Below are positions 5,632 to 40,710 of a DNA stretch of 64,000 bases, piece by piece. The stretch is taken from sequence record HE978309; one strand, written 5' to 3'. The stretch's first letter is position 1, and each line of letters opens with the position of its first letter. The DNA is from Enterobacteria phage GEC-3S. Both the position numbers and the translations under genes were made by a program. A model generated the notes under the pieces. That model made no database searches, had not been told where the DNA came from, and saw only the letters and a program-made list of their open reading frames with translations.

Positions 5632-6030
5632 TCACTTTGCAAGTCTTATGCGTAGTTGTTCAAGATCATCTGGGTTATCTATTACTGAAAAGTAGATTGA
5701 TACTATGATTGAGTTATCGTCGTACTGCGGGGTTACTTCTACTGTCAGGTTTCGGACCCGTGGTTCATAGTTTCGGATCGCCTCATTGATGTTTTTTGAT
5801 AAGGTATCCACTGTCAGTGGGTTCATGTTCTCAAACAGTGATTTATTGAGATCGCATCCAAACAGTGGATCAAATGGACGAGATCCCTTGCGAGTAGTCA
5901 CGATCAGTAGAATAGAATCTTTAACCGCTTTAATCCCTATGTTCTTTTTAACGTCGTTATTCCACGATCTGGATATATTGAGATCCAAATCAGTATACAT
6001 CTGATTAATAGTTGCCATGTTATACCTCAA
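5632..6030 (-). CDS. 25: gp25 baseplate wedge protein
   Basis: 132 aa; TTRKGSRPFDPLFGCDL...NYEPRV...FSVIDNPDD matches T4 gp25. Confidence 0.9.
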   Translation of the reverse strand: MRYNMATINQMYTDLDLNISRSWNNDVKKNIGIKAVKDSILLIVTTRKGSRPFDPLFGCDLNKSLFENMNPLTVDTLSKNINEAIRNYEPRVRNLTVEVTPQYDDNSIIVSIYFSVIDNPDDLEQLRIRLAK

Positions 6031-6656
6031 AGAATTTTAAGGAAACTGGATAGACCTGATAATGAATATACACCAGATTCCCCGCATTCGCACTTGATCG
6101 GTACTGCCAGCGTGATTTGATTTCTTGTTAGCTCGTCGATCACTTCTTCCACTTTATCCGTGGTAAGCATATCCAGCACGCGGTCAAAGTCCTGTGCGTT
6201 CAGGTCGTCTATATTGAATTGCTGATCGCCGATCACGATATATTCGATACATGCAATTACCATCTGCATAATATCAACATCTTCTGTAAACTTAGGTTGA
6301 CGAAACTTGATTTTTACTTGTCCTAAGTCCAGAATATACGGTTCAACTTCTGGTATCTGTGTGCGTGAAACATCAAGAGAGTATACTTTCTCTTTATTGC
6401 ATACACCACACACCCAAGTAGCATCAATTTTCATCTTATTGAGGCTGTGACACCATAAGAGAAGAAAAATATATTCTGCTTCGCATTTCTCTAGCTCTAA
6501 TGCATTGACCCCCGTACATTCATGTATGATCTCTATAACAACCTCTGACAGCTTGCCAGTCTCTTTTGCTGCTACCAGTTTTTGAAATTCGCCGAAGGTG
6601 AAAGCACGGGCGTGTATCAACTTTTCGCCTAATTGGATCTTGAAAAAGTATTGCAT
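6027..6656 (-). CDS. 26: gp26 baseplate hub protein
   Basis: 209 aa; position between 25 and the divergent gene 51, start overlaps gene 25. Confidence 0.7.
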   Translation of the reverse strand: MQYFFKIQLGEKLIHARAFTFGEFQKLVAAKETGKLSEVVIEIIHECTGVNALELEKCEAEYIFLLLWCHSLNKMKIDATWVCGVCNKEKVYSLDVSRTQIPEVEPYILDLGQVKIKFRQPKFTEDVDIMQMVIACIEYIVIGDQQFNIDDLNAQDFDRVLDMLTTDKVEEVIDELTRNQITLAVPIKCECGESGVYSLSGLSSFLKIL

Positions 6657-6698
6657 AATAAAACACCCTTTATAAACACATAGAATTATTTAGTATTT

Positions 6699-6706
6699 TA
6701 TAAATA
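6699..6706 (+). promoter_or_regulatory. T4-type late promoter (TATAAATA) for the 51-27-28-29-48-54 block
   Basis: exact TATAAATA about 20 nt upstream of the gene 51 start. Confidence 0.55.
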
Positions 6707-6726
6707 CCCGAAAGGGGGATTATACC

Positions 6727-7497
6727 ATGAATATTATCAGAATAAAACTACCGGAAGGTGTGCAGAGATTTAAACCATTCACGGTAAAAGATTATAGAGA
6801 TTTCCTTCTGGTGTCAACTGAAATTAAGATGAATCCAGAAGAAGAACAAACGATTCTTGATGAGCTATTAGAAGAAATATATCCAGACGTAGATCCGGCA
6901 TTTCGTGAATATATTTTCCTGAATGTCTTTACTAGTTCAATTGGTAAAACTAAGATACCGCTTTGTTTTACTTGCCCGACTTGCAACAAAGAAAGAAAAA
7001 TGTTGCTTAACTTACAGATTGAAGCACTAAAACCAATCGTTCTAGAGGCCGCAGGGCTTAAAATAACTTTCCGGTATGTTAAACCATCAACCGACTATGC
7101 AAAAACGTTTCTGGATGCGATAGAGCGTGTATCTGATGGTATTAATGATTATCTATGGACTGAATTACCGGAAGAAGTTAGAGAACAGGTTATCGATTCA
7201 ATCTCATTTGCTGAATTTGAAGAAGTTGTCAAGCAGATGCACACAATCAAGATCGAACAAAAGATATCTTGTTGTGAAAGTCATGACCTGAAATACATAG
7301 GTCTTCTTCCATTATTCAAATTGTTGTTGAATCCAGATGAGTTATTCATCTTTTATCGAATAAACCATCTATTGGCAAAATCAAATTATTCTATCAGTGA
7401 TCTTATGGATATGTTACCGGTCGAGAGAAACATTGCACTGACACTGGTCGAGAAAGACGTAAAAGAGGCAAATAATGCAAAGAACGGGGTTTCCTAA
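6727..7497 (+). CDS. 51: gp51 baseplate hub assembly protein
   Basis: 256 aa; synteny, divergent from 26; CxxC...C motif. Confidence 0.7.
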   Translation: MNIIRIKLPEGVQRFKPFTVKDYRDFLLVSTEIKMNPEEEQTILDELLEEIYPDVDPAFREYIFLNVFTSSIGKTKIPLCFTCPTCNKERKMLLNLQIEALKPIVLEAAGLKITFRYVKPSTDYAKTFLDAIERVSDGINDYLWTELPEEVREQVIDSISFAEFEEVVKQMHTIKIEQKISCCESHDLKYIGLLPLFKLLLNPDELFIFYRINHLLAKSNYSISDLMDMLPVERNIALTLVEKDVKEANNAKNGVS

Positions 7498-8257
7498 TGT
7501 CTCAATAAAACTTTATGCTGTTAATAACGTAACTAGCATGATTGATGCCATCTATAAGGAAGTTCCTTTATGGAAACCTACTATAAAGGGTGATAACGTT
7601 GTTATTCCTCGTTGTCCGTGGGTTAGTACCATAAATGACTATATGGATTTTGTGAGGGCATACGGGCAAAGCGTAGAAACAGAGTCTTTCGTGTATTGCT
7701 GGGAAGATTTTGATGGTATAACGATAGCTGGACACGATACAATATTAAAAAATGAGCCAATACCAGCTATAATCTGTGAGCCTAGACTCATGGGGCAATT
7801 TATTGATATGTCGCCTAATCTGATGGTTTTTAATTTCGAGTGGCAGACTAAGAGCAATGCTAAAGTTAAAAATTCATTTAGCAATGTGACATACACAACT
7901 ATTGATTTTGTTACTAAGCAGTATAATAAAATTATTGTTGGTAATGGGGATAACATTGCACACTTTGTTCATGGTGGCGCTTATGGCGATTTAACTTATA
8001 AGAATGCGTTTTTGGAAGGTTCTAAACTTGCCACAATAGAACAATATGATTCATATGCTACCGCCGTGTGTCACGGTAATTTTTCGTTGCGCCCCGGTAT
8101 GGTTATTCGATTCTTTGATGAGAAGCAACAAGCACGCAATGATTTTATTGTTGACGAAGTGGTGCATGAAATTAGCCGAGAGCAATCATTAACTCACCTG
8201 TATATGATCGGTAACAGCGAAGAATTACAGGAAGTCAAATTTGAAGGTAAGATATAA
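7475..8257 (+). CDS. 27: gp27 baseplate hub protein (short form, 260 aa)
   Basis: N- and C-terminal similarity to T4 gp27 (PNVSIKL..., ...VDEVVHEIS...THLYM); synteny between 51 and 28. Confidence 0.7.
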   Translation: MQRTGFPNVSIKLYAVNNVTSMIDAIYKEVPLWKPTIKGDNVVIPRCPWVSTINDYMDFVRAYGQSVETESFVYCWEDFDGITIAGHDTILKNEPIPAIICEPRLMGQFIDMSPNLMVFNFEWQTKSNAKVKNSFSNVTYTTIDFVTKQYNKIIVGNGDNIAHFVHGGAYGDLTYKNAFLEGSKLATIEQYDSYATAVCHGNFSLRPGMVIRFFDEKQQARNDFIVDEVVHEISREQSLTHLYMIGNSEELQEVKFEGKI

Positions 8258-8775
8258 TGACAGAAACTAAACCTATGTTAAAATTTGTTGTTCCTGTAAA
8301 AAAATTAGATATAAACGGGAAACATATCAAGATCCCAAAAATGGGGATTAAGCAACATCGATTATTAAAAGATGTTCGTAGCTGTGATGAAACATTAAAG
8401 ATTCTTCTTGATTCAATCTGTCCTGGGTTAAACGCTGCCGAGTCTGAATTGGTTATGCTTAACCTTTGTGCGTTTAATGGTAAGTGTCTGGAAGAAAAGG
8501 ATGGTCTTAAGCTGTCTGATGTGTATATTTGTACAGAGACTGAATTTACTTTAAATGGTAAAGTCTTTAAATTTAAAAATCCAATGTATACTTCTGACCC
8601 CATTATCGATGACGCTGATTTCTTGAGTCATCATTATCACGATCCTAGTGTAGACTTCCATGATTTCCCAGCTTTTATTATGGATTGGGCTACAGGATTA
8701 AGAAAAACTATTGCACTGGATACACCGGAAGGTACTATCTATGGTGGAATTAACATATTGGATCGCCTATCATGA
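8257..8775 (+). CDS. 28: gp28 baseplate hub distal subunit
   Basis: 172 aa, synteny, translationally coupled to 27 and 29. Confidence 0.7.
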   Translation: MTETKPMLKFVVPVKKLDINGKHIKIPKMGIKQHRLLKDVRSCDETLKILLDSICPGLNAAESELVMLNLCAFNGKCLEEKDGLKLSDVYICTETEFTLNGKVFKFKNPMYTSDPIIDDADFLSHHYHDPSVDFHDFPAFIMDWATGLRKTIALDTPEGTIYGGINILDRLS

Positions 8776-10505
8776 ATGACGCATTAACATCATTTCGCGG
8801 GATGCGCAAGGAAGCGGAAGAAAACCCGATTGATAAACTTAACAAATTAGATAAACTTGATTCTATTGATAATTTGCAAGCCGCTACCGAATTGGTGGCG
8901 GAGACAGTAGAACAAAAATCTAATGAAGTTGTTGGTGCGGTAGAGGATAACACCGCAGCCAATGAATTGACGGCAGAAAATACACAATCTACCGCTGGCA
9001 ATACCAAAAAAACTTATGAAGAATTGCAAAAACTCAATAATTTCTCTTCTCAGATGAATGAGAAATTACGTGGTTTTGGTGTTATGATGGAACGTAGATT
9101 TGGTGTTGTCAGTAAAATGGCTAGCGGTATTGGTGCGATTGAAGAAGCACTGAAAAAACCGGAACAACCGCAAACAATGCCATCACCTCAGCCAGTTTTG
9201 CCTACTGTGCCGGAACAGCCTAATAATGACAACTATCAAGGTCTTCCAAAGAAAAAACCAGATGTTGAGGAACGGAAGAAAAAGAACGCCACAGATAAGC
9301 GTAATGCCGATTCTATGGAAAATCTTCTTAAAGTTGTTCGTGGAGGATTTAAAGAAACCATAGGTATCTCTAATAAGGTCTTAGGGATGTTATTTAAGAT
9401 CACCTTGACCGCTATGGCAGAAGCCGCAAAATGGGGCGCTATTTTGATGGGTATTGTTTTTGCCATTGATACCCTTATGATTCATTTCAGATATTGGAGT
9501 GATTTATTCGAAACAAAATTTGATGAATTTATGGATAAAGCCGGAGAATGGGCTGGACCAATTAGTGATATTCTAACAACTATTCGTCAAGTTCGAGATT
9601 ATTGGTCTAAAGGCGAATATGGAGAGTTAATTAAATCTCTTGTTATGGGTATTGGTGATGCATTCTATAAAACCTTTATCCAACTTGATCGAATTATCAC
9701 TACTGGTATTGCTAAAATTCTTCGCATGATCCCTGGTATGGGTGATTATGCCGATAAGTTAGAATACGGTGCTTTAAAGTCTGCTGTCGCTCAAGGCTAT
9801 ACTCCAAATGAAAGAGAACTCGAATTAATGGATAAGGTCGAGTCTGAACATGAAGAAGACAAATATGGAGAGCGTACTGGTTGGACCGGAAAAGCCCGTG
9901 ATATTGGCGAAGCTATTGGGGATTCTATTAAGGATAAAGTTAACGAAGGTCTTGTTAGTCTGGGCTGGCGAGATCAAAAGGATGTTGACGCAGAGAAACG
10001 ACAAGAAGAATTAAAACGCGGGGAATATAAGTCTGTTTCTGCTGAACAACGATCTGCTAGTCGTAAACTTAGAATTAAAAGCGAGGGCGCGATCAATAAT
10101 ATTAATGAAGTTATGGAGAATTTGAGCGGTGACTATGACAAAGAAAGAATGGGAGAGTTGAAAAAGGATATTGATGTTTACCGTGAGCAAGTTCAAGATC
10201 CTACATTAGTTGAAAGTGATCGTTCTCAGTTAGAGCGTCTTATTGAAAAATTTGATGAGATGTATGCTGATAAAACTAAGGGTGCGGTTCCAACTAATCC
10301 TGTTCCTGCAACTGAAACGGAAACAGCAAAACAAGCGGAACGTACTGAACAAATGCAGAAACAAGCTGCAATCCAGCAACAAACGACAAATCAGACCTCA
10401 AACGTAAATAATACACAAATTGTAACAAACAATAGAACTGTTAAACAGGGTGCACCAACAACTAGAATTGATGCCCCCGGTACAATTAATATGGGGAACT
10501 TTTAA
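8772..10505 (+). CDS. 29: gp29 baseplate hub / tail-length determinant
   Basis: 577 aa, synteny, size close to T4 gp29 (590 aa). Confidence 0.8.
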   Translation: MNDALTSFRGMRKEAEENPIDKLNKLDKLDSIDNLQAATELVAETVEQKSNEVVGAVEDNTAANELTAENTQSTAGNTKKTYEELQKLNNFSSQMNEKLRGFGVMMERRFGVVSKMASGIGAIEEALKKPEQPQTMPSPQPVLPTVPEQPNNDNYQGLPKKKPDVEERKKKNATDKRNADSMENLLKVVRGGFKETIGISNKVLGMLFKITLTAMAEAAKWGAILMGIVFAIDTLMIHFRYWSDLFETKFDEFMDKAGEWAGPISDILTTIRQVRDYWSKGEYGELIKSLVMGIGDAFYKTFIQLDRIITTGIAKILRMIPGMGDYADKLEYGALKSAVAQGYTPNERELELMDKVESEHEEDKYGERTGWTGKARDIGEAIGDSIKDKVNEGLVSLGWRDQKDVDAEKRQEELKRGEYKSVSAEQRSASRKLRIKSEGAINNINEVMENLSGDYDKERMGELKKDIDVYREQVQDPTLVESDRSQLERLIEKFDEMYADKTKGAVPTNPVPATETETAKQAERTEQMQKQAAIQQQTTNQTSNVNNTQIVTNNRTVKQGAPTTRIDAPGTINMGNF

Positions 10506-11563
10506 TGAAAATTAGTGTTATCAATGATGCCGTTGATAGCTTTAAAGCGGGGGTTAAAACCTCCGCTGGTTTTACCTCAAAAAATAAAGGAAAAACATTA
10601 ACCGCTCAATTCCCCGCTGAACGTGCTAGCGGTAATGATGCTAGCGGTTATTATATCAACGACTTATATAATAATGGTCTGTTATTCACTGCATACGATT
10701 ATACATCTCGTACTACTGGATCGTTGCGTGATTTCAGGAAAAAGAAAAATGTTGCTAGCGGTTTTGGCGGTAGCGTTAATATCGCTGGTTTTGATTTAAA
10801 TTTGGGAGGGAGAAATGCTGCATTTGACCGCGAGGCAATTGCTAATATTCTTCTTCCTCGTAGTCAATCTGACGTTGACGCTGCTAGCCATAAGTTTAAT
10901 GATGTTGGTGAATCTGTCATTTCTCGCGGCGGTGGTACTTTAGGCGGTGCTCTTTCTAATATGGCATCTACTGCCGTTTTTGGTGGTATCGAAAGTATTA
11001 CTGGTGGATACCTTGCCGATCACGGTGAACAGATTTATAATACTGCGCGAAGCATGTATGCGGGTGCTGACGCACGAACTAAAAACTACGTATGGCATTT
11101 AACCCCACGTAGTATTGAAGACCTTCGCAATATTCTGATCATATACGAAACGTTTTTAGAATTGTCTTATGGATCTAGTGGTATTTCCAGCACCGCAAAA
11201 GAATTAAAAGCGGAAGTTGATGCGTGGTATAAAAATACACTATTGAGAAAATCCACCCCAGAGGAAGCGAAGAGAAATGATACTCTGTTTGAAGGGATCA
11301 CCGATTTTCTATCAAACGCAATTACTGTATCTAACCCGACAATATGGATGATCTCTAACTTCGGTAAGCGTACATCGTTTGAAGGGCGTAGCGATGCATT
11401 TGGTCCCGCTCAGATCTCAAGTGTACGTCTGGACAAGTCGCCGGATGGTAAGTTTAATGGCCTTGCTATTTCTCCTAACTTGCCGAGTACCTTTGTTCTG
11501 GAAGTATCATTTAGAGAGATCTTGACACTTTCCCGTGGTACTATATTTGGGAGTGCGGTATAA
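10505..11563 (+). CDS. 48: gp48 baseplate tail-tube cap
   Basis: 352 aa, synteny. Confidence 0.8.
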   Translation: MKISVINDAVDSFKAGVKTSAGFTSKNKGKTLTAQFPAERASGNDASGYYINDLYNNGLLFTAYDYTSRTTGSLRDFRKKKNVASGFGGSVNIAGFDLNLGGRNAAFDREAIANILLPRSQSDVDAASHKFNDVGESVISRGGGTLGGALSNMASTAVFGGIESITGGYLADHGEQIYNTARSMYAGADARTKNYVWHLTPRSIEDLRNILIIYETFLELSYGSSGISSTAKELKAEVDAWYKNTLLRKSTPEEAKRNDTLFEGITDFLSNAITVSNPTIWMISNFGKRTSFEGRSDAFGPAQISSVRLDKSPDGKFNGLAISPNLPSTFVLEVSFREILTLSRGTIFGSAV

Positions 11564-12495
11564 TGTTTGATTTAAATGATTTTAACGAACAAGCCGCTAA
11601 CCTTGACTTTCAGCGATCCAACTTATTCAGCGTGGCATTTGCCACCACTCCAAGTAATAAGACACAAGCGATCCTAGAAAGTATGGGCGGTGCGGTATAT
11701 GATATTATACCAAATGCATTAAATGACTATTTCGGGATTACTCGTGGTGATTATACTGACGCATTAACAAATCTTGCTGTACAGGGTGTTAGGCGTGCTG
11801 TTGATTCATCCGGTGTCAAAAAGTATCTTTTAGGTGCAATGTCATCCCGCGTAGTTCAATCTCTTCTGGGGCAATTTGATGTTGGTACATATGCGCTTGA
11901 CTGGTTCAATATGGCATATAAGACAAGCGGTCTTCTGGTGTATGCTGTTAAGGTTCCAGAAAACAGATTGAATTATGAAATGGACCGTAACCACAATGCG
12001 CCAAACATTCGAATTACCGGACGTGATTTTGATCCGCTTGTGTTGAGCTTTAGAATGGACTCTAGCGCATCAAACTATAGAGCAATGCAGGATTGGGTTA
12101 ACTCAGTAGAAGACCCCGTCACAGGGCTTCGTGCGCTTCCTGTTGACGTTGAAGCGGATATTCAGGTCAACTTACATAACCGAATGGGAGTCCCTCACAC
12201 GATTATGATGTTTAATGGTTGTGTTCCTGTTGGTGTGAGTGCACCGGAATTAACCTATGAAAACAACAACGAAATTACAACATTCGATGTTACTTTCGCA
12301 TATCGTTCTATGCAAACTGGTGCTGTAGGAGAGCAAGCCGCGCGAGAATGGATTGAGGATAAGGCAATAAACGCAATAACAAACACTTTCGGCAATAATT
12401 TACTTGATAGTGGGTTATCTGCTGCTGGTAATGCTTTATCGCGTCTAAATGGCGTTGGTGGGCGTGTGGTGAATACTGTCACTAACTGGTTCTGA
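11563..12495 (+). CDS. 54: gp54 baseplate tail-tube initiator
   Basis: 310 aa, synteny. Confidence 0.8.
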   Translation: MFDLNDFNEQAANLDFQRSNLFSVAFATTPSNKTQAILESMGGAVYDIIPNALNDYFGITRGDYTDALTNLAVQGVRRAVDSSGVKKYLLGAMSSRVVQSLLGQFDVGTYALDWFNMAYKTSGLLVYAVKVPENRLNYEMDRNHNAPNIRITGRDFDPLVLSFRMDSSASNYRAMQDWVNSVEDPVTGLRALPVDVEADIQVNLHNRMGVPHTIMMFNGCVPVGVSAPELTYENNNEITTFDVTFAYRSMQTGAVGEQAAREWIEDKAINAITNTFGNNLLDSGLSAAGNALSRLNGVGGRVVNTVTNWF

Positions 12496-18870: not shown

Positions 18871-18902
18871 TTTGATTCTCCTATATTTCGTTTCGGTATG
18901 GG

Positions 18903-18944
18903 TGTATTATAGGGGATCTCCCGATCCCCGTCAACAACTTTTTT
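18903..18944 (-). promoter_or_regulatory. early promoter cassette (PeSL-like)
   Basis: TTGACG, spacer GGGATCGGGAGATCCCC, TATAAT, conserved leader. Confidence 0.6.
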
Positions 18945-18948
18945 AAAA

Positions 18949-19230
18949 TTATTCGTGATTAGTTTCGATGTTGTGCATTTTGCACCAGTTCAGCCAATCG
19001 ACCAGGTCTTGATAGTTGATGCTTTTATCTGCTGCCATCGTTTTTGTCTTGATACCCATATGTGCGTTATGAGTAAGCATTTTTACAGTGAACTCAATTT
19101 TATCGCCTTTAGCTTTAACATCAACCAGTTTGGTCCACTGGCTACCAGCGCCGCGAATGTTCATGCCAACGATGTTTCCGATGTATGCTTCTTTGTTTTT
19201 CAGGATTTCGGTTGCTTTGATGAATTTCAT
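18949..19230 (-). CDS. hypothetical early protein (93 aa)
   Basis: ORF track; GGAGAATCAAA RBS. Confidence 0.5.
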   Translation of the reverse strand: MKFIKATEILKNKEAYIGNIVGMNIRGAGSQWTKLVDVKAKGDKIEFTVKMLTHNAHMGIKTKTMAADKSINYQDLVDWLNWCKMHNIETNHE

Positions 19231-21943: not shown

Positions 21944-21985
21944 AGTATCTTACTACTCCCTTTAATCATTGTCAACGATTATTTG
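21944..21985 (-). promoter_or_regulatory. early promoter cassette (PeSL-like)
   Basis: TTGACA, spacer containing GGGAGTAGTAAGATACTCCC hairpin, weak -10. Confidence 0.45.
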
Positions 21986-22146
21986 TTAATTTCTGGTGCG
22001 TTGCTCGGATAGTAACCTTCTTTAACACCCAGATATTTTGCAACCATTCCGGTGATCTTCTGTGCTACTACGATATCGAATTTCAGGTAGTCTTCACCGT
22101 GGTTTGCTACAATGTATGCTTCGCATTCTGCTTTAGTCTGGAACAT
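21979..22146 (-). CDS. small protein, copy B of a duplicated gene (55 aa)
   Basis: ORF track 21979..22212; start at MFQTKAECEAY... with GGAGAATCAAAA RBS; duplicate of 18703..18870. Confidence 0.5.
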   Translation of the reverse strand: MFQTKAECEAYIVANHGEDYLKFDIVVAQKITGMVAKYLGVKEGYYPSNAPEINK

Positions 22147-22177
22147 TTTTGATTCTCCTATATCTCGTTGGTATGTG

Positions 22178-22219
22178 TGTAGTATAGGGGATCGGTGATC
22201 CCCTGTCAACAACTTTTTT
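22178..22219 (-). promoter_or_regulatory. early promoter cassette (PeSL-like)
   Basis: TTGACA, spacer GGGGATCACCGATCCCC, TATACT. Confidence 0.55.
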
Positions 22220-22526
22220 ATTCTTCATCTTCATTTTTATCTTTATATGCGTACTTCATAAATTTGTCTGCTACTTTGTCCGCGTTTTCAGGTTCTACGT
22301 CTGACGCTAGGACAACAGCTAGTTCGGTTTTGTCGTTTCCGTCATACCAATGATTATGAGTGTCGTTTTCTTCGATATAAAACGAATCATTTGGAGTTGT
22401 TCGACAATATACGTCTAAATTCCCATCGATATAAAAGATCCAATCCGAATACAAAATGATTGCTTTAGCCAGATTTTTATTGTCTCTTACAAAAGGTTCC
22501 GCGACAAATAGCTTAGTTTGTTCCAT
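22218..22526 (-). CDS. HxHW-family small protein, paralog 5
   Basis: ORF track 22218..22583; start at MEQTKLF... with GAGGAAAA RBS; WIFYIDGNLDVY...HNHW...AVVLASDV. Confidence 0.55.
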   Translation of the reverse strand: MEQTKLFVAEPFVRDNKNLAKAIILYSDWIFYIDGNLDVYCRTTPNDSFYIEENDTHNHWYDGNDKTELAVVLASDVEPENADKVADKFMKYAYKDKNEDEE

Positions 22527-34443: not shown

Positions 34444-34631
34444 TATTCGACAACCTCAAAGCATTTATCATCAGGAAGAATAGCCCATTCTATGCCGTAT
34501 TCATCCTCAACGTAGTAGCAAGCCCCATCATGTCGAGCATCATATTCATCACGTCGAGCATCATATACATCACCGACAACAAAGCTATCAGCTAGCTCAA
34601 AATCTACAGCAACACATTTTAATTTGGTCAT
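34443..34631 (-). CDS. hypothetical acidic protein (62 aa)
   Basis: ORF track 34443..34694; start MTKLKCVAV with GTGAGGAT RBS. Confidence 0.45.
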   Translation of the reverse strand: MTKLKCVAVDFELADSFVVGDVYDARRDEYDARHDGACYYVEDEYGIEWAILPDDKCFEVVE

Positions 34632-37011: not shown

Positions 37012-38235
37012 TTATACTGCCATTTGAGCGGTGATCGCTGGATGGCTTTGATAGTTGTGAATTTTAAAATCTTTCGGAGTCTTTGTCAATACCTCATCTA
37101 AAGATTTAAATTCCGGCAACTCAATTGTTGGTTTATCAAACGGAACACGGCTTAACTGTTCCATAACTTGATCAAAATGGTTTTTGTAAATGTGGCAATC
37201 CCCACACTGATAAACCAGTTCGCCAACTTCTAACCCGCAAATCTTCGCGATGATATGCGTTAACAGTGCATAGCTCGCTACGTTGAACGGATTCCCTAAA
37301 AAGAGATCATTCGAACGCATGAAAAATAAACAACTCAATTTGTTGTCGTTGGAAACATAAAACTGTACCATCGGATGACATACACCTAACACAGCATTAT
37401 GCGTTTCCTGTACGTTCCATGAATCAATGATAATACGACGACTATACGGATCATTCTTGATCATGTCAATAACTTTTTGTAACTGGTCTTCCCAAATCTT
37501 CGGGCGATAGACATATTCTTCATCGTCTTTAGTGCTTGATGTGTCTACGTCCATACTAACAAACATCGTGGTATCCGGTGCTATAATATCCCCACCCAGA
37601 TAATCACTATCAAGCAGATAACCGAAATAACCATCATCTACCCATTCCTGGAATCCCCACAAGCAATATGCATCATTAACAAAATTAGATTGAGTCTTCC
37701 AGTGGTCTGCTACCAGAATATAATCAAACTCTTCATAACGCATACCACGCCAGATAGCACATAAACGGTCTTCTGTGTCATTGGTTGGCGTAAAGTCTTC
37801 TACCCACGGGTGCTTAAATGTATGTGTATATTTGCTCTTAACGCGCTTAATTTTGATTTCACCATGTGGATGAATCGGTTTGCGTCGCCACGCCATACCA
37901 TACATATTGCCGACATTATAACCATTGAATCGCAAGGGATTCTTTTCTTTCATATCAAGACAGTTGCCGCGCCAAATATCAAAGGCTTCCTCGTCAAACT
38001 TGCCGCGTGTAATTTCCTGTAAGCGACGGCGGTCAAGTGATCCCTCCATAAACCATAGCAATTCGCCAATCACAGAGGCTGTAGCCATCTTTTTAGTGGT
38101 CAGTAATGGGAAACCCTTGCTTAAATCAATTCGCATCTCTGCGCCGAATTTAGAGAGCGTACCTACCCCCGTGCGGTCTTCACGAGGACAGCCATTATCA
38201 AGAACATCACGCAACAGTTTCAAATATTCTTTCAT
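37012..38235 (-). CDS. td: thymidylate synthase with a large internal insertion
   Basis: 407 aa; conserved DRTGVGT, catalytic CHPMVQFYV, SNDLFLGNPFNVASYALL; roughly 120 extra residues between YGMAWRR and DPYSRRII; no intron. Confidence 0.85.
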   Translation of the reverse strand: MKEYLKLLRDVLDNGCPREDRTGVGTLSKFGAEMRIDLSKGFPLLTTKKMATASVIGELLWFMEGSLDRRRLQEITRGKFDEEAFDIWRGNCLDMKEKNPLRFNGYNVGNMYGMAWRRKPIHPHGEIKIKRVKSKYTHTFKHPWVEDFTPTNDTEDRLCAIWRGMRYEEFDYILVADHWKTQSNFVNDAYCLWGFQEWVDDGYFGYLLDSDYLGGDIIAPDTTMFVSMDVDTSSTKDDEEYVYRPKIWEDQLQKVIDMIKNDPYSRRIIIDSWNVQETHNAVLGVCHPMVQFYVSNDNKLSCLFFMRSNDLFLGNPFNVASYALLTHIIAKICGLEVGELVYQCGDCHIYKNHFDQVMEQLSRVPFDKPTIELPEFKSLDEVLTKTPKDFKIHNYQSHPAITAQMAV

Positions 38236-39554: not shown

Positions 39555-40710
39555 AAGATTTTACGATATACATGATGGTGCTCAATTCGGACGGCGCTAC
39601 TGTCTCTGTGTAGCCATCCGGCATATCTTCTTTCGAGATATAGGAAGTTTTACCTTTCATTGCTTCCTTGATTTTGTTCTCTAATTCTAAGATCTTTTGA
39701 CCGTCTTGTAAAGTCAATTCATAAAAGATCTCATGATCGAACTTTGAAACACGAGATTGGTTTCTCATGCGCTCATGTGTTTCTTTGTTTGTTATTCCAA
39801 ATTTCACGCCAACAAAGGAATCATTGTTGGTTAATTTCTGTATATAAAGAGTTCCTGTCTTTAATGCCTGATAACCATGCTTAGAACACAACGGGCAGCG
39901 TGTTCCGCGATTAACAAAATTATCAATAGTTACATCCCATTCATGGTTACGTTCGCATGTCAGAAGTATTCTTGTTAATGCACCTTTCCACTTTCCTGAA
40001 ATCCCAATAAATTTTAGTCTGTTGGTTTCGCATATTTTTTCAATTTGTTTTAATCGGTCACTTTTTGTTATTGGTGCTGTTCCGCTACATTTGCGACACC
40101 GACGACCTAGTTTGAACTTATCATAACTTTGTTCGTAAATGTGATTATTAGGACACTCAAATTTAAGTTTAGTTTTTGTTCCTCTCCATTCCCCAATTAT
40201 ACCCAAAAATTTATAATCTCCTTTATTTTCATTTATATAAGATAAGGAATCTTCTTTATCATGCATCTTGCCCCCGTTACATAAAGGACATCTTGTTTTT
40301 TGATGAATGAAATCTGTATATGTTGGTTGGTATGTGTGTCCGTTTGTACAGTTCATAATGAGTCTTGTTCTGCTATTTTTATACTCCCCACCAACAAAAC
40401 CAACAAATACATCGTTTGTTTCTTGTTTTATTCTTTCTATCACATTGTTTGGGTTTAATCTTTGAGAATCAACCACACATTTCTTACACGAAACTTTTTT
40501 CCTGATATTTGCTAGAGTTGATGTGTATTCATGCTTGTTATTACATAATATAAGAGCTTTTGTTTTGAGACCAGACCATTCTCCAACAAACCCCATGAAA
40601 GAATAACCAACTTCCAAACATGATTTTTTTACAACATTTTCCCAATAGAAGGGAGTTTTCGTGTTTCCTTTTATTTCTATACGAATCTCATGTGCTTGAC
40701 GTACTAACAT
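39532..40710 (-). CDS. protein with four zinc-ribbon repeats and a C-terminal T5orf172/GIY-YIG-like domain
   Basis: ORF track 39532..40755; start MLVRQAHEIR with GGAGGA RBS; four repeats of G..G.W.G..TK....C...H.Y...(F)....RC..C; C-terminal GTLYIQKL...VGVKFGITN. Confidence 0.55.
   Translation of the reverse strand: MLVRQAHEIRIEIKGNTKTPFYWENVVKKSCLEVGYSFMGFVGEWSGLKTKALILCNNKHEYTSTLANIRKKVSCKKCVVDSQRLNPNNVIERIKQETNDVFVGFVGGEYKNSRTRLIMNCTNGHTYQPTYTDFIHQKTRCPLCNGGKMHDKEDSLSYINENKGDYKFLGIIGEWRGTKTKLKFECPNNHIYEQSYDKFKLGRRCRKCSGTAPITKSDRLKQIEKICETNRLKFIGISGKWKGALTRILLTCERNHEWDVTIDNFVNRGTRCPLCSKHGYQALKTGTLYIQKLTNNDSFVGVKFGITNKETHERMRNQSRVSKFDHEIFYELTLQDGQKILELENKIKEAMKGKTSYISKEDMPDGYTETVAPSELSTIMYIVKSFEKELTA

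What the first reader, a model, noticed from the sequence alone, without database searches (positions are those of the whole stretch)
7475..8257. gp27 baseplate hub protein about one third shorter than in T4
The ORF is 260 aa with clear N- and C-terminal similarity to T4 gp27, which is 391 aa as I recall. The reading frame cannot extend upstream because of a stop, and the gene is coupled to gene 51 and gene 28, so about 130 central residues appear to be missing. That would remove part of the gp27 torus/gp5-binding architecture.
Basis: partly seen in the sequence, partly recalled or inferred. Interest (0 to 1): 0.35.

Follow-up and report, generated by a model that had tools for sequence, protein, structure and literature searches.

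The report
Unique in-frame deletion inside phage gp27
This RB49-like coliphage sequence carries a clean 327-base in-frame deletion in its essential tail-hub gene 27. The deletion removes one of the protein's two tube-forming domains, and every other known relative keeps that domain, so it is most likely a broken allele or a sequence error rather than a new compact hub protein.

Summary
ORF 7475-8257 (+) encodes a 260-aa gp27 homolog. It overlaps gene 51 by 23 nt and shares a TAATG stop/start with gene 28.

The window is a Krischvirus (RB49/Phi1 group), 98.9-99.5% identical to known isolates. All 52 sequenced relatives that cover the region have a 369-aa gp27. The window lacks exactly 327 bp, which are codons 15-123 (T4 gp27 residues 18-127).

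The junction lies between 7516 and 7517. It sits on a codon boundary and has no microhomology. It is the only large indel in 40 kb of alignment with Phi1.

The lost segment is not central. It is 85% of the N-terminal tube beta-barrel (T4 residues 2-111), which supplies half of the pseudo-hexameric torus that links trimeric gp5-gp27 to the six-fold tube. It is also the most conserved part of the protein.

No complete homolog in three independent searches lacks this segment. The missing DNA is not elsewhere in the window. The neighbouring hub and tube genes show no compensating change; gp48 is identical to Phi1.

Best reading: a recent one-off lesion giving a non-functional hub subunit. It is either a record or assembly error, or a genuinely defective genome. 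It is not a natural short gp27. A viable phage with this protein would be remarkable, but I put that at about 8%.

The parts
6699..6706 (+). TATAAATA motif (T4-type late-promoter consensus) 21 nt upstream of the gene 51 ATG; probable start of the 51-27-28-29-48-54 late transcript
   Evidence: Read directly from the sequence. Its role as a promoter is inferred from knowledge of T4 late promoters and was not tested. The sigma-70 scan found no excess of sites.
6727..7497 (+). Gene 51 (baseplate hub assembly protein, 256 aa); overlaps the start of gene 27 by 23 nt
   Evidence: PF12322, E 1.4e-43. One substitution relative to Phi1 gp51. Annotated as gp51 in Phi1.
7475..8257 (+). Gene 27 with an internal deletion (260 aa, 29.7 kDa, against 369 aa and 42.2 kDa in relatives)
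7475..7516 (+). Retained codons 1-14 (MQRTGFPNVSIKLY), the first beta-strand of the N-terminal tube domain, now without its barrel
   Evidence: Identical to Phi1 and MIZ6. This is strand E7-14 in the full-length model. Residues 1-15 have pLDDT below 50 in the truncated model.
7516..7517 (+). Deletion junction (..AAACTTTAT|GCTGTTAAT..); 327 bp present in all relatives is absent here
   Evidence: DNA alignment. BLAST break at window 7516/7517, equal to Phi1 L003 8072/8400. Microhomology is zero on both sides.
7517..8254 (+). Retained codons equivalent to residues 124-369 of the genus protein (T4 128-391): the non-tube domains and the second tube domain
   Evidence: One amino-acid and five nucleotide differences from Phi1. 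The model superposes on T4 gp27 over 242 columns, TM 0.84 by query length and 0.60 by target length.
8257..8775 (+). Gene 28 (hub distal subunit, 172 aa); its start overlaps the gene 27 stop (TAATG)
   Evidence: PF11110, E 9.7e-27. One substitution relative to Phi1.
8772..10505 (+). Gene 29 (tape-measure and hub protein, 577 aa); in T4 its C-terminus binds the gp27 trimer
   Evidence: PF25671, E 3.1e-50. Same length as in Phi1, 11 substitutions. The T4 interaction is from PMC12929629.
10505..11563 (+). Gene 48 (baseplate-tube junction protein, 352 aa), positioned between the gp27 ring and the tube
   Evidence: 100% identical to Phi1 gp48. The position between gp27 and the tube is from PMC3004832.
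11563..12495 (+). Gene 54 (tube initiator, 310 aa)
   Evidence: Two substitutions relative to Phi1.
6027..6656 (-). Gene 26 (hub subunit, 209 aa), divergently transcribed
   Evidence: Two substitutions relative to Phi1 gp26.

Best explanation
Gene 27 of this Krischvirus carries a recent, one-off, in-frame 327-bp deletion (delta codons 15-123, equal to T4 gp27 18-127).

Shown: the deletion removes a helix, five beta-strands and a second helix of the N-terminal tube beta-barrel. The first strand is left fused directly to the helix that begins at residue 124.

Background from the T4 literature: a gp27 trimer builds its pseudo-sixfold torus from 3 x 2 tube domains. That torus is the adaptor between trimeric gp5-gp27 and the six-fold gp48/gp54/gp19 tube.

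Inferred: the truncated protein can supply only three of the six barrels. It may still fold its remaining domains, but it should be unable to complete the hub ring. The allele is therefore most probably a loss of function of an essential gene, not a natural compact hub protein.

The origin of the lesion cannot be settled from sequence. My split is about 55% an error or edit in the sequence record (assembly, consensus or manipulation). About 30% is a genuine deletion in a defective, complemented or engineered genome. The remainder goes to the rival explanations.
For: Uniqueness:
- All 52 relatives in the phage collection that cover the region have the extra 327 bp.
- gp27 is 369 aa in Phi1 and MIZ6.
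- The junction sequence is absent from IMG/VR, JGI metagenomes, GTDB genomes and E. coli genomes. The exact 260-aa protein is not on record.

No natural short form:
- All complete homologs among the 5.8 billion clusters are 369-397 aa.
- In the search of 1.84 billion representatives, the 11 hits that reach query residues 5-43 all carry at least 115 residues upstream of the matched stretch. The other two are 76- and 190-aa pieces.
- 50 of 51 IMG/VR loci match query residues 1 or 2 through at least 357.
- The family's length variants are C-terminal lysin fusions that keep a full PF09097 domain.

Constraint on the lost part:
- T4 and Phi1 are 50.5% identical in the deleted part and 38.1% in the retained part. 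In the 21-sequence alignment the figures are 57.9% and 49.1%, and every sequence fills the region.

Structure:
- The T4 tube domains are residues 2-111 and 207-239 plus 307-368, forming the pseudo-sixfold torus (PMC3004832).
- The full-length relative's model (pLDDT 85.8) matches T4 gp27 at TM 0.93/0.91.
- The deletion removes H17-21, E32-40, E45-52, E66-73, E79-93, E99-107 and H108-112.
- In the truncated model, residues 1-15 are disordered, and coverage of T4 gp27 drops to TM 0.60 by target length.

Recency and lack of compensation:
- The retained 783 nt differ from Phi1 at five positions, giving one amino-acid change.
- gp48 is identical to Phi1. gp51, gp28, gp26 and gp54 differ by 1-2 residues.
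- The missing DNA is nowhere else in the 64-kb window.

Junction:
- Zero microhomology. The flanks are no more alike than random pairs of sites 327 bp apart.
Against: The deletion is exactly in frame and on a codon boundary. An unselected event does that about 1 time in 9, so this slightly favours a selected (viable) or designed deletion over a random artefact.

The rest of the window looks like a clean, high-quality natural genome. No other indel in a recognised gene leaves the reading frame broken; unpaired 1-2-nt indels occur only in intergenic DNA and in a few hypothetical ORFs (ORF205, ORF245, ORF247).

Assemblers rarely drop 327 bp where there is no repeat.

AlphaFold2 still folds residues 16-260 with reasonable confidence, so the truncated protein need not be unstable.

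Non-functionality is inferred from T4 structure and conservation. It was not measured.
Confidence: 0.82

Rival explanations
1. The deletion is real and the phage is viable. The hub works with a gp27 that has a single tube domain per subunit. Either the ring has three barrels, or the three gaps are filled in trans by another tube-fold protein such as gp48 or gp54.
For: The deletion is in frame and on a codon boundary, and it preserves translational coupling to genes 51 and 28. The remaining domains are predicted to fold. The surrounding genome looks like a normal, well-assembled isolate.
Against: No precedent in any homolog set searched. Among solved hub and VgrG structures, the full-length model aligns over about 330-590 columns to targets of 287-953 residues. 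The lost segment is the most conserved part of the family. There are no compensating substitutions in gp48, gp54, gp28, gp51 or gp26, or in the rest of gp27. The breakpoints do not respect domain limits: strand 1 is orphaned and 16 residues beyond the T4 domain boundary are also lost.
Confidence: 0.08
2. The missing domain, or a second intact copy of gene 27, is encoded elsewhere in the genome outside this 64-kb window. The locus would then be a remnant or one half of a split gene.
For: Only 64 kb of a genome of about 164 kb is visible, so most of the genome could not be searched.
Against: Neither blastn nor tblastn with the missing segment finds anything in the window. The relatives searched show only one place matching the gene 27 region (one place per record). 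No event of this kind is seen in the genus.
Confidence: 0.05
3. A short gp27 is the normal form in this phage lineage, a natural lineage-specific architecture. This is the reading implied by comparing only with T4.
For: None beyond the ORF length itself.
Against: All 52 Krischvirus-group genomes that cover the region, at 95.7-100% identity around the junction, carry the 369-aa gene. The cluster representative P0001 (98% identical, 141 member sequences) is 369 aa.
Confidence: 0.01

Closest known systems
gp27 of Krischvirus phages (for example Phi1 ABR24690.1, RB49, MIZ6; 369 aa)
   Same: Same locus, same start codon, same overlaps with genes 51 and 28. The 260 retained residues are 98% identical to the relatives by the alignment tool's figure, with one residue differing from Phi1.
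   Different: Lacks codons 15-123 (327 bp). No other member of the genus does.
T4 gp27 baseplate hub protein (PDB 1K28, 5IV5, 9MKB; Pfam PF09097 + PF09096)
   Same: Homologous over T4 residues 4-17 and 128-367. The predicted fold of the retained part superposes at rmsd 2.5 A over 242 columns.
   Different: Missing T4 residues 18-127. That is 94 of the 110 residues of tube domain 1, plus 16 residues of the next domain. It also lacks 3 N-terminal and 18 C-terminal T4 residues, as the whole genus does.
Klebsiella phage KP1/vB_Kpn_Lilla1 baseplate hub subunit (PDB 9F4A chain BE, 380 aa)
   Same: Best sequence match among solved structures (E 5.2e-60, query 16-254 to chain 127-365) and a fold match.
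   Different: The solved protein has the full N-terminal domain.
Other gp27-like hub modules (Mu gp44, P1 hub, pyocin R2 hub, VgrG, PVC/AFP spikes)
   Same: Same four-domain hub fold. The full-length relative's model aligns to all of them.
   Different: Against these targets the full-length model reaches TM 0.50-0.63 by query length, and the truncated model only 0.38-0.53. No sequence similarity.

Membership tests
T4-type gp27 baseplate hub protein (Pfam PF09097 Phage-tail_1 + PF09096 Phage-tail_2) | Significant match to PF09096 (C-terminal half) | tested here: met
   E 1.5e-38, 132.9 bits against a cut-off of 25, profile positions 2-164 of 173.
T4-type gp27 baseplate hub protein (Pfam PF09097 Phage-tail_1 + PF09096 Phage-tail_2) | Complete PF09097 module (N-terminal half, 196 profile positions) | tested here: not met
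   Only profile positions 126-193 are matched. Homologs match positions 1-195.
T4-type gp27 baseplate hub protein (Pfam PF09097 Phage-tail_1 + PF09096 Phage-tail_2) | Two tube beta-barrel domains per subunit, giving a pseudo-hexameric torus in the trimer | tested here: not met
   The first barrel (T4 2-111) loses five strands and two helices. The truncated model covers only TM 0.60 of T4 gp27 by target length.
T4-type gp27 baseplate hub protein (Pfam PF09097 Phage-tail_1 + PF09096 Phage-tail_2) | Position in the 26/51-27-28-29-48-54 hub gene cluster | tested here: met
   The gene order and overlaps match Phi1, and the gene order matches T4.
T4-type gp27 baseplate hub protein (Pfam PF09097 Phage-tail_1 + PF09096 Phage-tail_2) | Forms a (gp27-gp5)3 complex and nucleates the hub | not testable with these tools
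   By synteny gene 5 lies outside the window. No multimer modelling or experiment was available.
Naturally compact or split gp27 variants (hypothetical class) | Independent homologs that lack the N-terminal tube domain | tested here: not met
   None found among the homologs returned from 5.8 billion clusters, 1.84 billion representatives, 51 IMG/VR loci and 52 phage genomes. The only short hits are fragments (144, 190 and 76 aa) and one chimeric-looking contig.

The most novel reading that the evidence does not exclude
A viable T4-type phage builds its baseplate hub from a gp27 that lacks the N-terminal tube domain. The symmetry adaptor between the trimeric spike and the hexameric tube would then work with three barrels instead of six. 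Alternatively, the gaps are filled in trans by another tube-fold protein.
Probability: 0.08. Interest if true: 0.8.

Novelty: new variant of a known kind. Interest (0 to 1): 0.3.

Why it matters
If the deletion is an error or a defective allele, it matters only for curation. The gene should be flagged and the genome checked before it is used, for example in phage therapy or comparative work.

If it were real in a viable phage, it would overturn a widely held rule. In every hub, VgrG or tail-tip structure that matched here, the trimer-to-hexamer adaptor is built from two tube domains per subunit. A viable deletion would give a direct experimental handle on how much of that ring is needed for tube initiation and DNA delivery.

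Tried and rejected
1. The missing segment was relocated within the window. blastn (word size 7) and tblastn with the 327 bp / 109 aa gave only chance hits.
2. A natural short gp27 family exists. Three independent homolog searches found none.
3. The extra 327 bp in relatives is an insertion (intron or mobile element). Rejected, because T4 and all distant homologs have the same residues and they are the best-conserved part.
4. Slippage or recombination between direct repeats. Microhomology is zero, and the similarity of the flanks is at the random level, with 82% of random site pairs scoring at least as high.
5. Compensating changes in neighbouring hub and tube genes. None were found.
6. A generally poor assembly. 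Other indels are at most 21 bp, and those in recognised genes are in-frame or come in compensating pairs. Unpaired 1-2-nt indels occur only in intergenic DNA and a few hypothetical ORFs.
7. Finding the source record or another copy of the junction. There was no match in four collections, and the exact protein is not on record.
8. Literature on a Krischvirus gp27 deletion, and the paper behind PDB 9F4A. Nothing relevant was found.
9. Sigma-70 promoter and terminator scan around the gene. No excess over shuffled sequence.
10. Opposite-strand ORFs inside 7475-8257 (45-105 aa). They are unannotated in relatives and were treated as chance ORFs.

Full report
**What is there**

ORF 7475..8257 on the + strand encodes 260 aa and begins at the first ATG after an in-frame stop. 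It sits in a T4-type hub cluster:
- gene 25 (5632-6030, -) and gene 26 (6027-6656, -)
- gene 51 (6727-7497, +)
- the ORF itself
- gene 28 (8257-8775), gene 29 (8772-10505), gene 48 (10505-11563) and gene 54 (11563-12495)

Genes 51, 27, 28 and 29 have Pfam support. The others are assigned by collinearity with the annotated Phi1 genome. The ORF overlaps gene 51 by 23 nt, and its TAA shares bases with the gene 28 ATG (TAATG). A TATAAATA motif lies at 6699-6706, 21 nt upstream of gene 51. From knowledge of T4 late promoters it probably drives the whole block, but this is inference.

**Identity of the window**

Megablast places the window in the genus Krischvirus (the RB49, Phi1, JSE, ECD7 and MIZ group). 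It is 99.5% identical to MIZ6 and 99.3% to Phi1 over 6000-9000. It is 98.9% identical to Phi1 over the first 25 kb. No record is identical, so the source is a distinct isolate or was not in the collection.

**The anomaly**

Every one of the top hits aligned in two pieces spanning 3328 bases of the record for 3001 bases of query. With a 281-nt query centred on the site, all 52 records that cover it span 606-608 bases, about 327 more than the query. The 53rd record, kaaroe, has its record start and end in this region.

In Phi1 and MIZ6, gene 27 is 1110 bp and encodes 369 aa. DNA and protein alignments show that the window lacks codons 15-123 (QDYEAF...SLTNN). The junction is ..AAA CTT TAT | GCT GTT AAT.. 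between window bases 7516 and 7517. The 260 retained residues differ from Phi1 at one position, and the retained 783 nt at five.

**Is it more than chance or noise?**

Against Phi1 the window is collinear from 1 to 39855. Apart from this deletion the largest indel is a 21-bp in-frame insertion. The others are 1-6 nt. Those in recognised genes are in-frame or occur as compensating pairs in locally divergent patches. Unpaired 1-2-nt indels lie in intergenic DNA or a few hypothetical ORFs. So this is not a generally noisy assembly, and the deletion is a singular event.

The junction has zero microhomology on either side. The 50-nt neighbourhoods of the two breakpoints are no more alike than random pairs of sites 327 bp apart (score 6, against a mean of 6.8). 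The junction sequence is absent from IMG/VR, JGI metagenomes, GTDB genomes and complete E. coli genomes. The exact 260-aa protein is not on record. The missing 327 bp, or its translation, is not elsewhere in the window.

**Mapping onto gp27**

T4 gp27 is 391 aa. Aligning T4, Phi1 and the window shows that Phi1 15-123 corresponds to T4 18-127. The shortfall of 131 residues against T4 therefore breaks down as follows:
- about 110 residues from this deletion
- 3 N-terminal T4 residues that the whole genus lacks
- 18 C-terminal T4 residues that the whole genus lacks

According to the T4 tail review (PMC3004832), gp27 has two homologous tube beta-barrel domains, at residues 2-111 and at 207-239 plus 307-368. 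In the trimer they form a pseudo-sixfold torus. That torus adapts the threefold gp5-gp27 complex to the sixfold baseplate and tube. In T4 the C-terminus of the tape-measure protein gp29 also binds this pseudo-hexameric trimer (PMC12929629).

The deletion removes 94 of the 110 residues of tube domain 1, plus 16 residues beyond it.

An AlphaFold2 model of the 369-aa relative P0001 has pLDDT 85.8 and pTM 0.84. It superposes on T4 gp27 at TM 0.93/0.91. In that model the deleted stretch contains H17-21, E32-40, E45-52, E66-73, E79-93, E99-107 and H108-112. Only strand E7-14 survives, now fused to helix 124-135.

The model of the 260-aa protein has pLDDT 76.6. It keeps the fold of the remaining domains, but residues 1-15 fall below pLDDT 50. 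It covers T4 gp27 over only 242 columns, with TM 0.60 normalised to T4.

What is lost is half of the torus. Everything outside the first tube domain and its 16-residue extension is retained. Which retained residues contact gp5 was not tested.

**Is a one-barrel gp27 known anywhere?**

No.
- In the 5.8-billion-cluster search, all complete hits, down to 39% identity, are 369-397 aa. The only short hit is a 144-aa fragment on a 1.1-kb contig.
- In the exhaustive search of 1.84 billion representatives, the 11 hits that reach query residues 5-43 all carry at least 115 residues upstream of the match. The two short hits (190 and 76 aa) cover only parts of the query.
- In IMG/VR, 50 of 51 loci match residues 1 or 2 through at least 357 in one piece. 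The exception, L055, is a contig that switches to unrelated DNA after codon 87.
- Length variation in the family is by C-terminal addition of cell-wall hydrolase domains after a complete PF09097 + PF09096 module.

The deleted segment is also the most conserved part. T4 and Phi1 are 50.5% identical there, against 38.1% in the retained part. In a 21-sequence alignment the figures are 57.9% and 49.1%, and all 21 sequences fill the region.

**No compensation**

gp48, which lies between the gp27 ring and the tube, is identical to Phi1 gp48. gp51, gp28, gp26 and gp54 differ by 1-2 conservative residues. gp29 has the same length. By synteny gene 5 lies outside the window, so the suggested gp5 check cannot be made here.

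**Interpretation**

Shown:
- a unique, recent, clean in-frame deletion that excises most of tube domain 1
- no precedent, no compensation and no relocated copy in the window

Inferred:
- a trimer of this protein offers three barrels instead of six, so it should not complete the adaptor ring
- because gene 27 is an essential hub gene in T4 (established knowledge), the allele should be null

I therefore read it as a lesion, not an architecture (confidence about 0.82). Its origin cannot be decided from sequence.

Against a trivial artefact: the in-frame, codon-boundary cut has about a 1 in 9 chance if unselected, there is no repeat at the site, and the rest of the window is clean.

Against a viable phage: the universal conservation of the domain, breakpoints that do not respect domain limits, and no co-adaptation.

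My split is as follows:
- about 55%: record, assembly or editing error
- about 30%: genuine but defective, complemented or engineered DNA
- about 8%: genuine and functional
- about 5%: rescued by sequence outside the window

**Comparison and membership**

By descent and locus it is a gp27 (PF09096 is met and synteny is met). It fails two defining structural features of the family: a complete PF09097 module and two tube domains per subunit. It is best filed as a deletion allele of Krischvirus gene 27, not as a new kind of hub protein.

**Verdict**

Interest is low to moderate (0.3). The anomaly is real and unique in the sequence, but it most probably reflects a defect. Read-level or PCR confirmation is the decisive and cheap next step. 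Only if that confirms the allele in a viable stock does this become a striking finding.

Noticed in passing
Proteins P0013, P0014, P0016, P0017, P0019 (database homologs, not in the window): Distant gp27 homologs of 528-771 aa carry C-terminal peptidoglycan-hydrolase domains (VanY, CHAP, SLT, Peptidase_M15) after a complete gp27 module. This suggests hub-lysin fusions in which gp27, rather than gp5, carries the tail lysin.
   Followed up: partly
L055 1446-1779 (IMGVR_UViG_3300010283_000068, 8157-bp contig): This contig carries a uvsW-like 3' end and a divergent uvsY. It then has 55 nt of the gene 51 end plus the first 87 codons of a Krischvirus-like gene 27 (92% nt identity), and switches abruptly to unrelated DNA with ORFs on the other strand. 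It is either a chimeric metagenome assembly or a recombinant.
   Followed up: partly
window 34532-34552: A 21-bp in-frame insertion (GTCGAGCATCATATTCATCAC) relative to the small hypothetical gene ORF233 of Phi1. It is the second-largest indel in the 40-kb alignment.
   Followed up: no
window 39856-40707: An 850-bp stretch with no megablast alignment to Phi1, within the region of Phi1 hypothetical ORF240 next to gene 32. It looks like a mosaic replacement.
   Followed up: no
window 18872-18954 and 21978-22220: These short stretches in the cluster of small early genes also match non-collinear positions of Phi1 at 85-92% identity (L003 24196-24277 and 19588-19829). They are dispersed repeats. From memory, they may be the promoter/stem-loop cassettes described for RB49-type phages; this was not tested.
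   Followed up: no
window 37206-37466: A cluster of paired +1/-1 indels and a 3-bp insertion relative to the Phi1 'td' gene, indicating a locally divergent patch. The Phi1 td CDS is annotated as 1221 bp, which from memory seems long for a thymidylate synthase.
   Followed up: no
window 5632-6030 (-): The mechanical ORF for gene 25 starts at a TTG four codons upstream of the ATG annotated in Phi1 (132 aa against 128 aa). It is otherwise identical.
   Followed up: no
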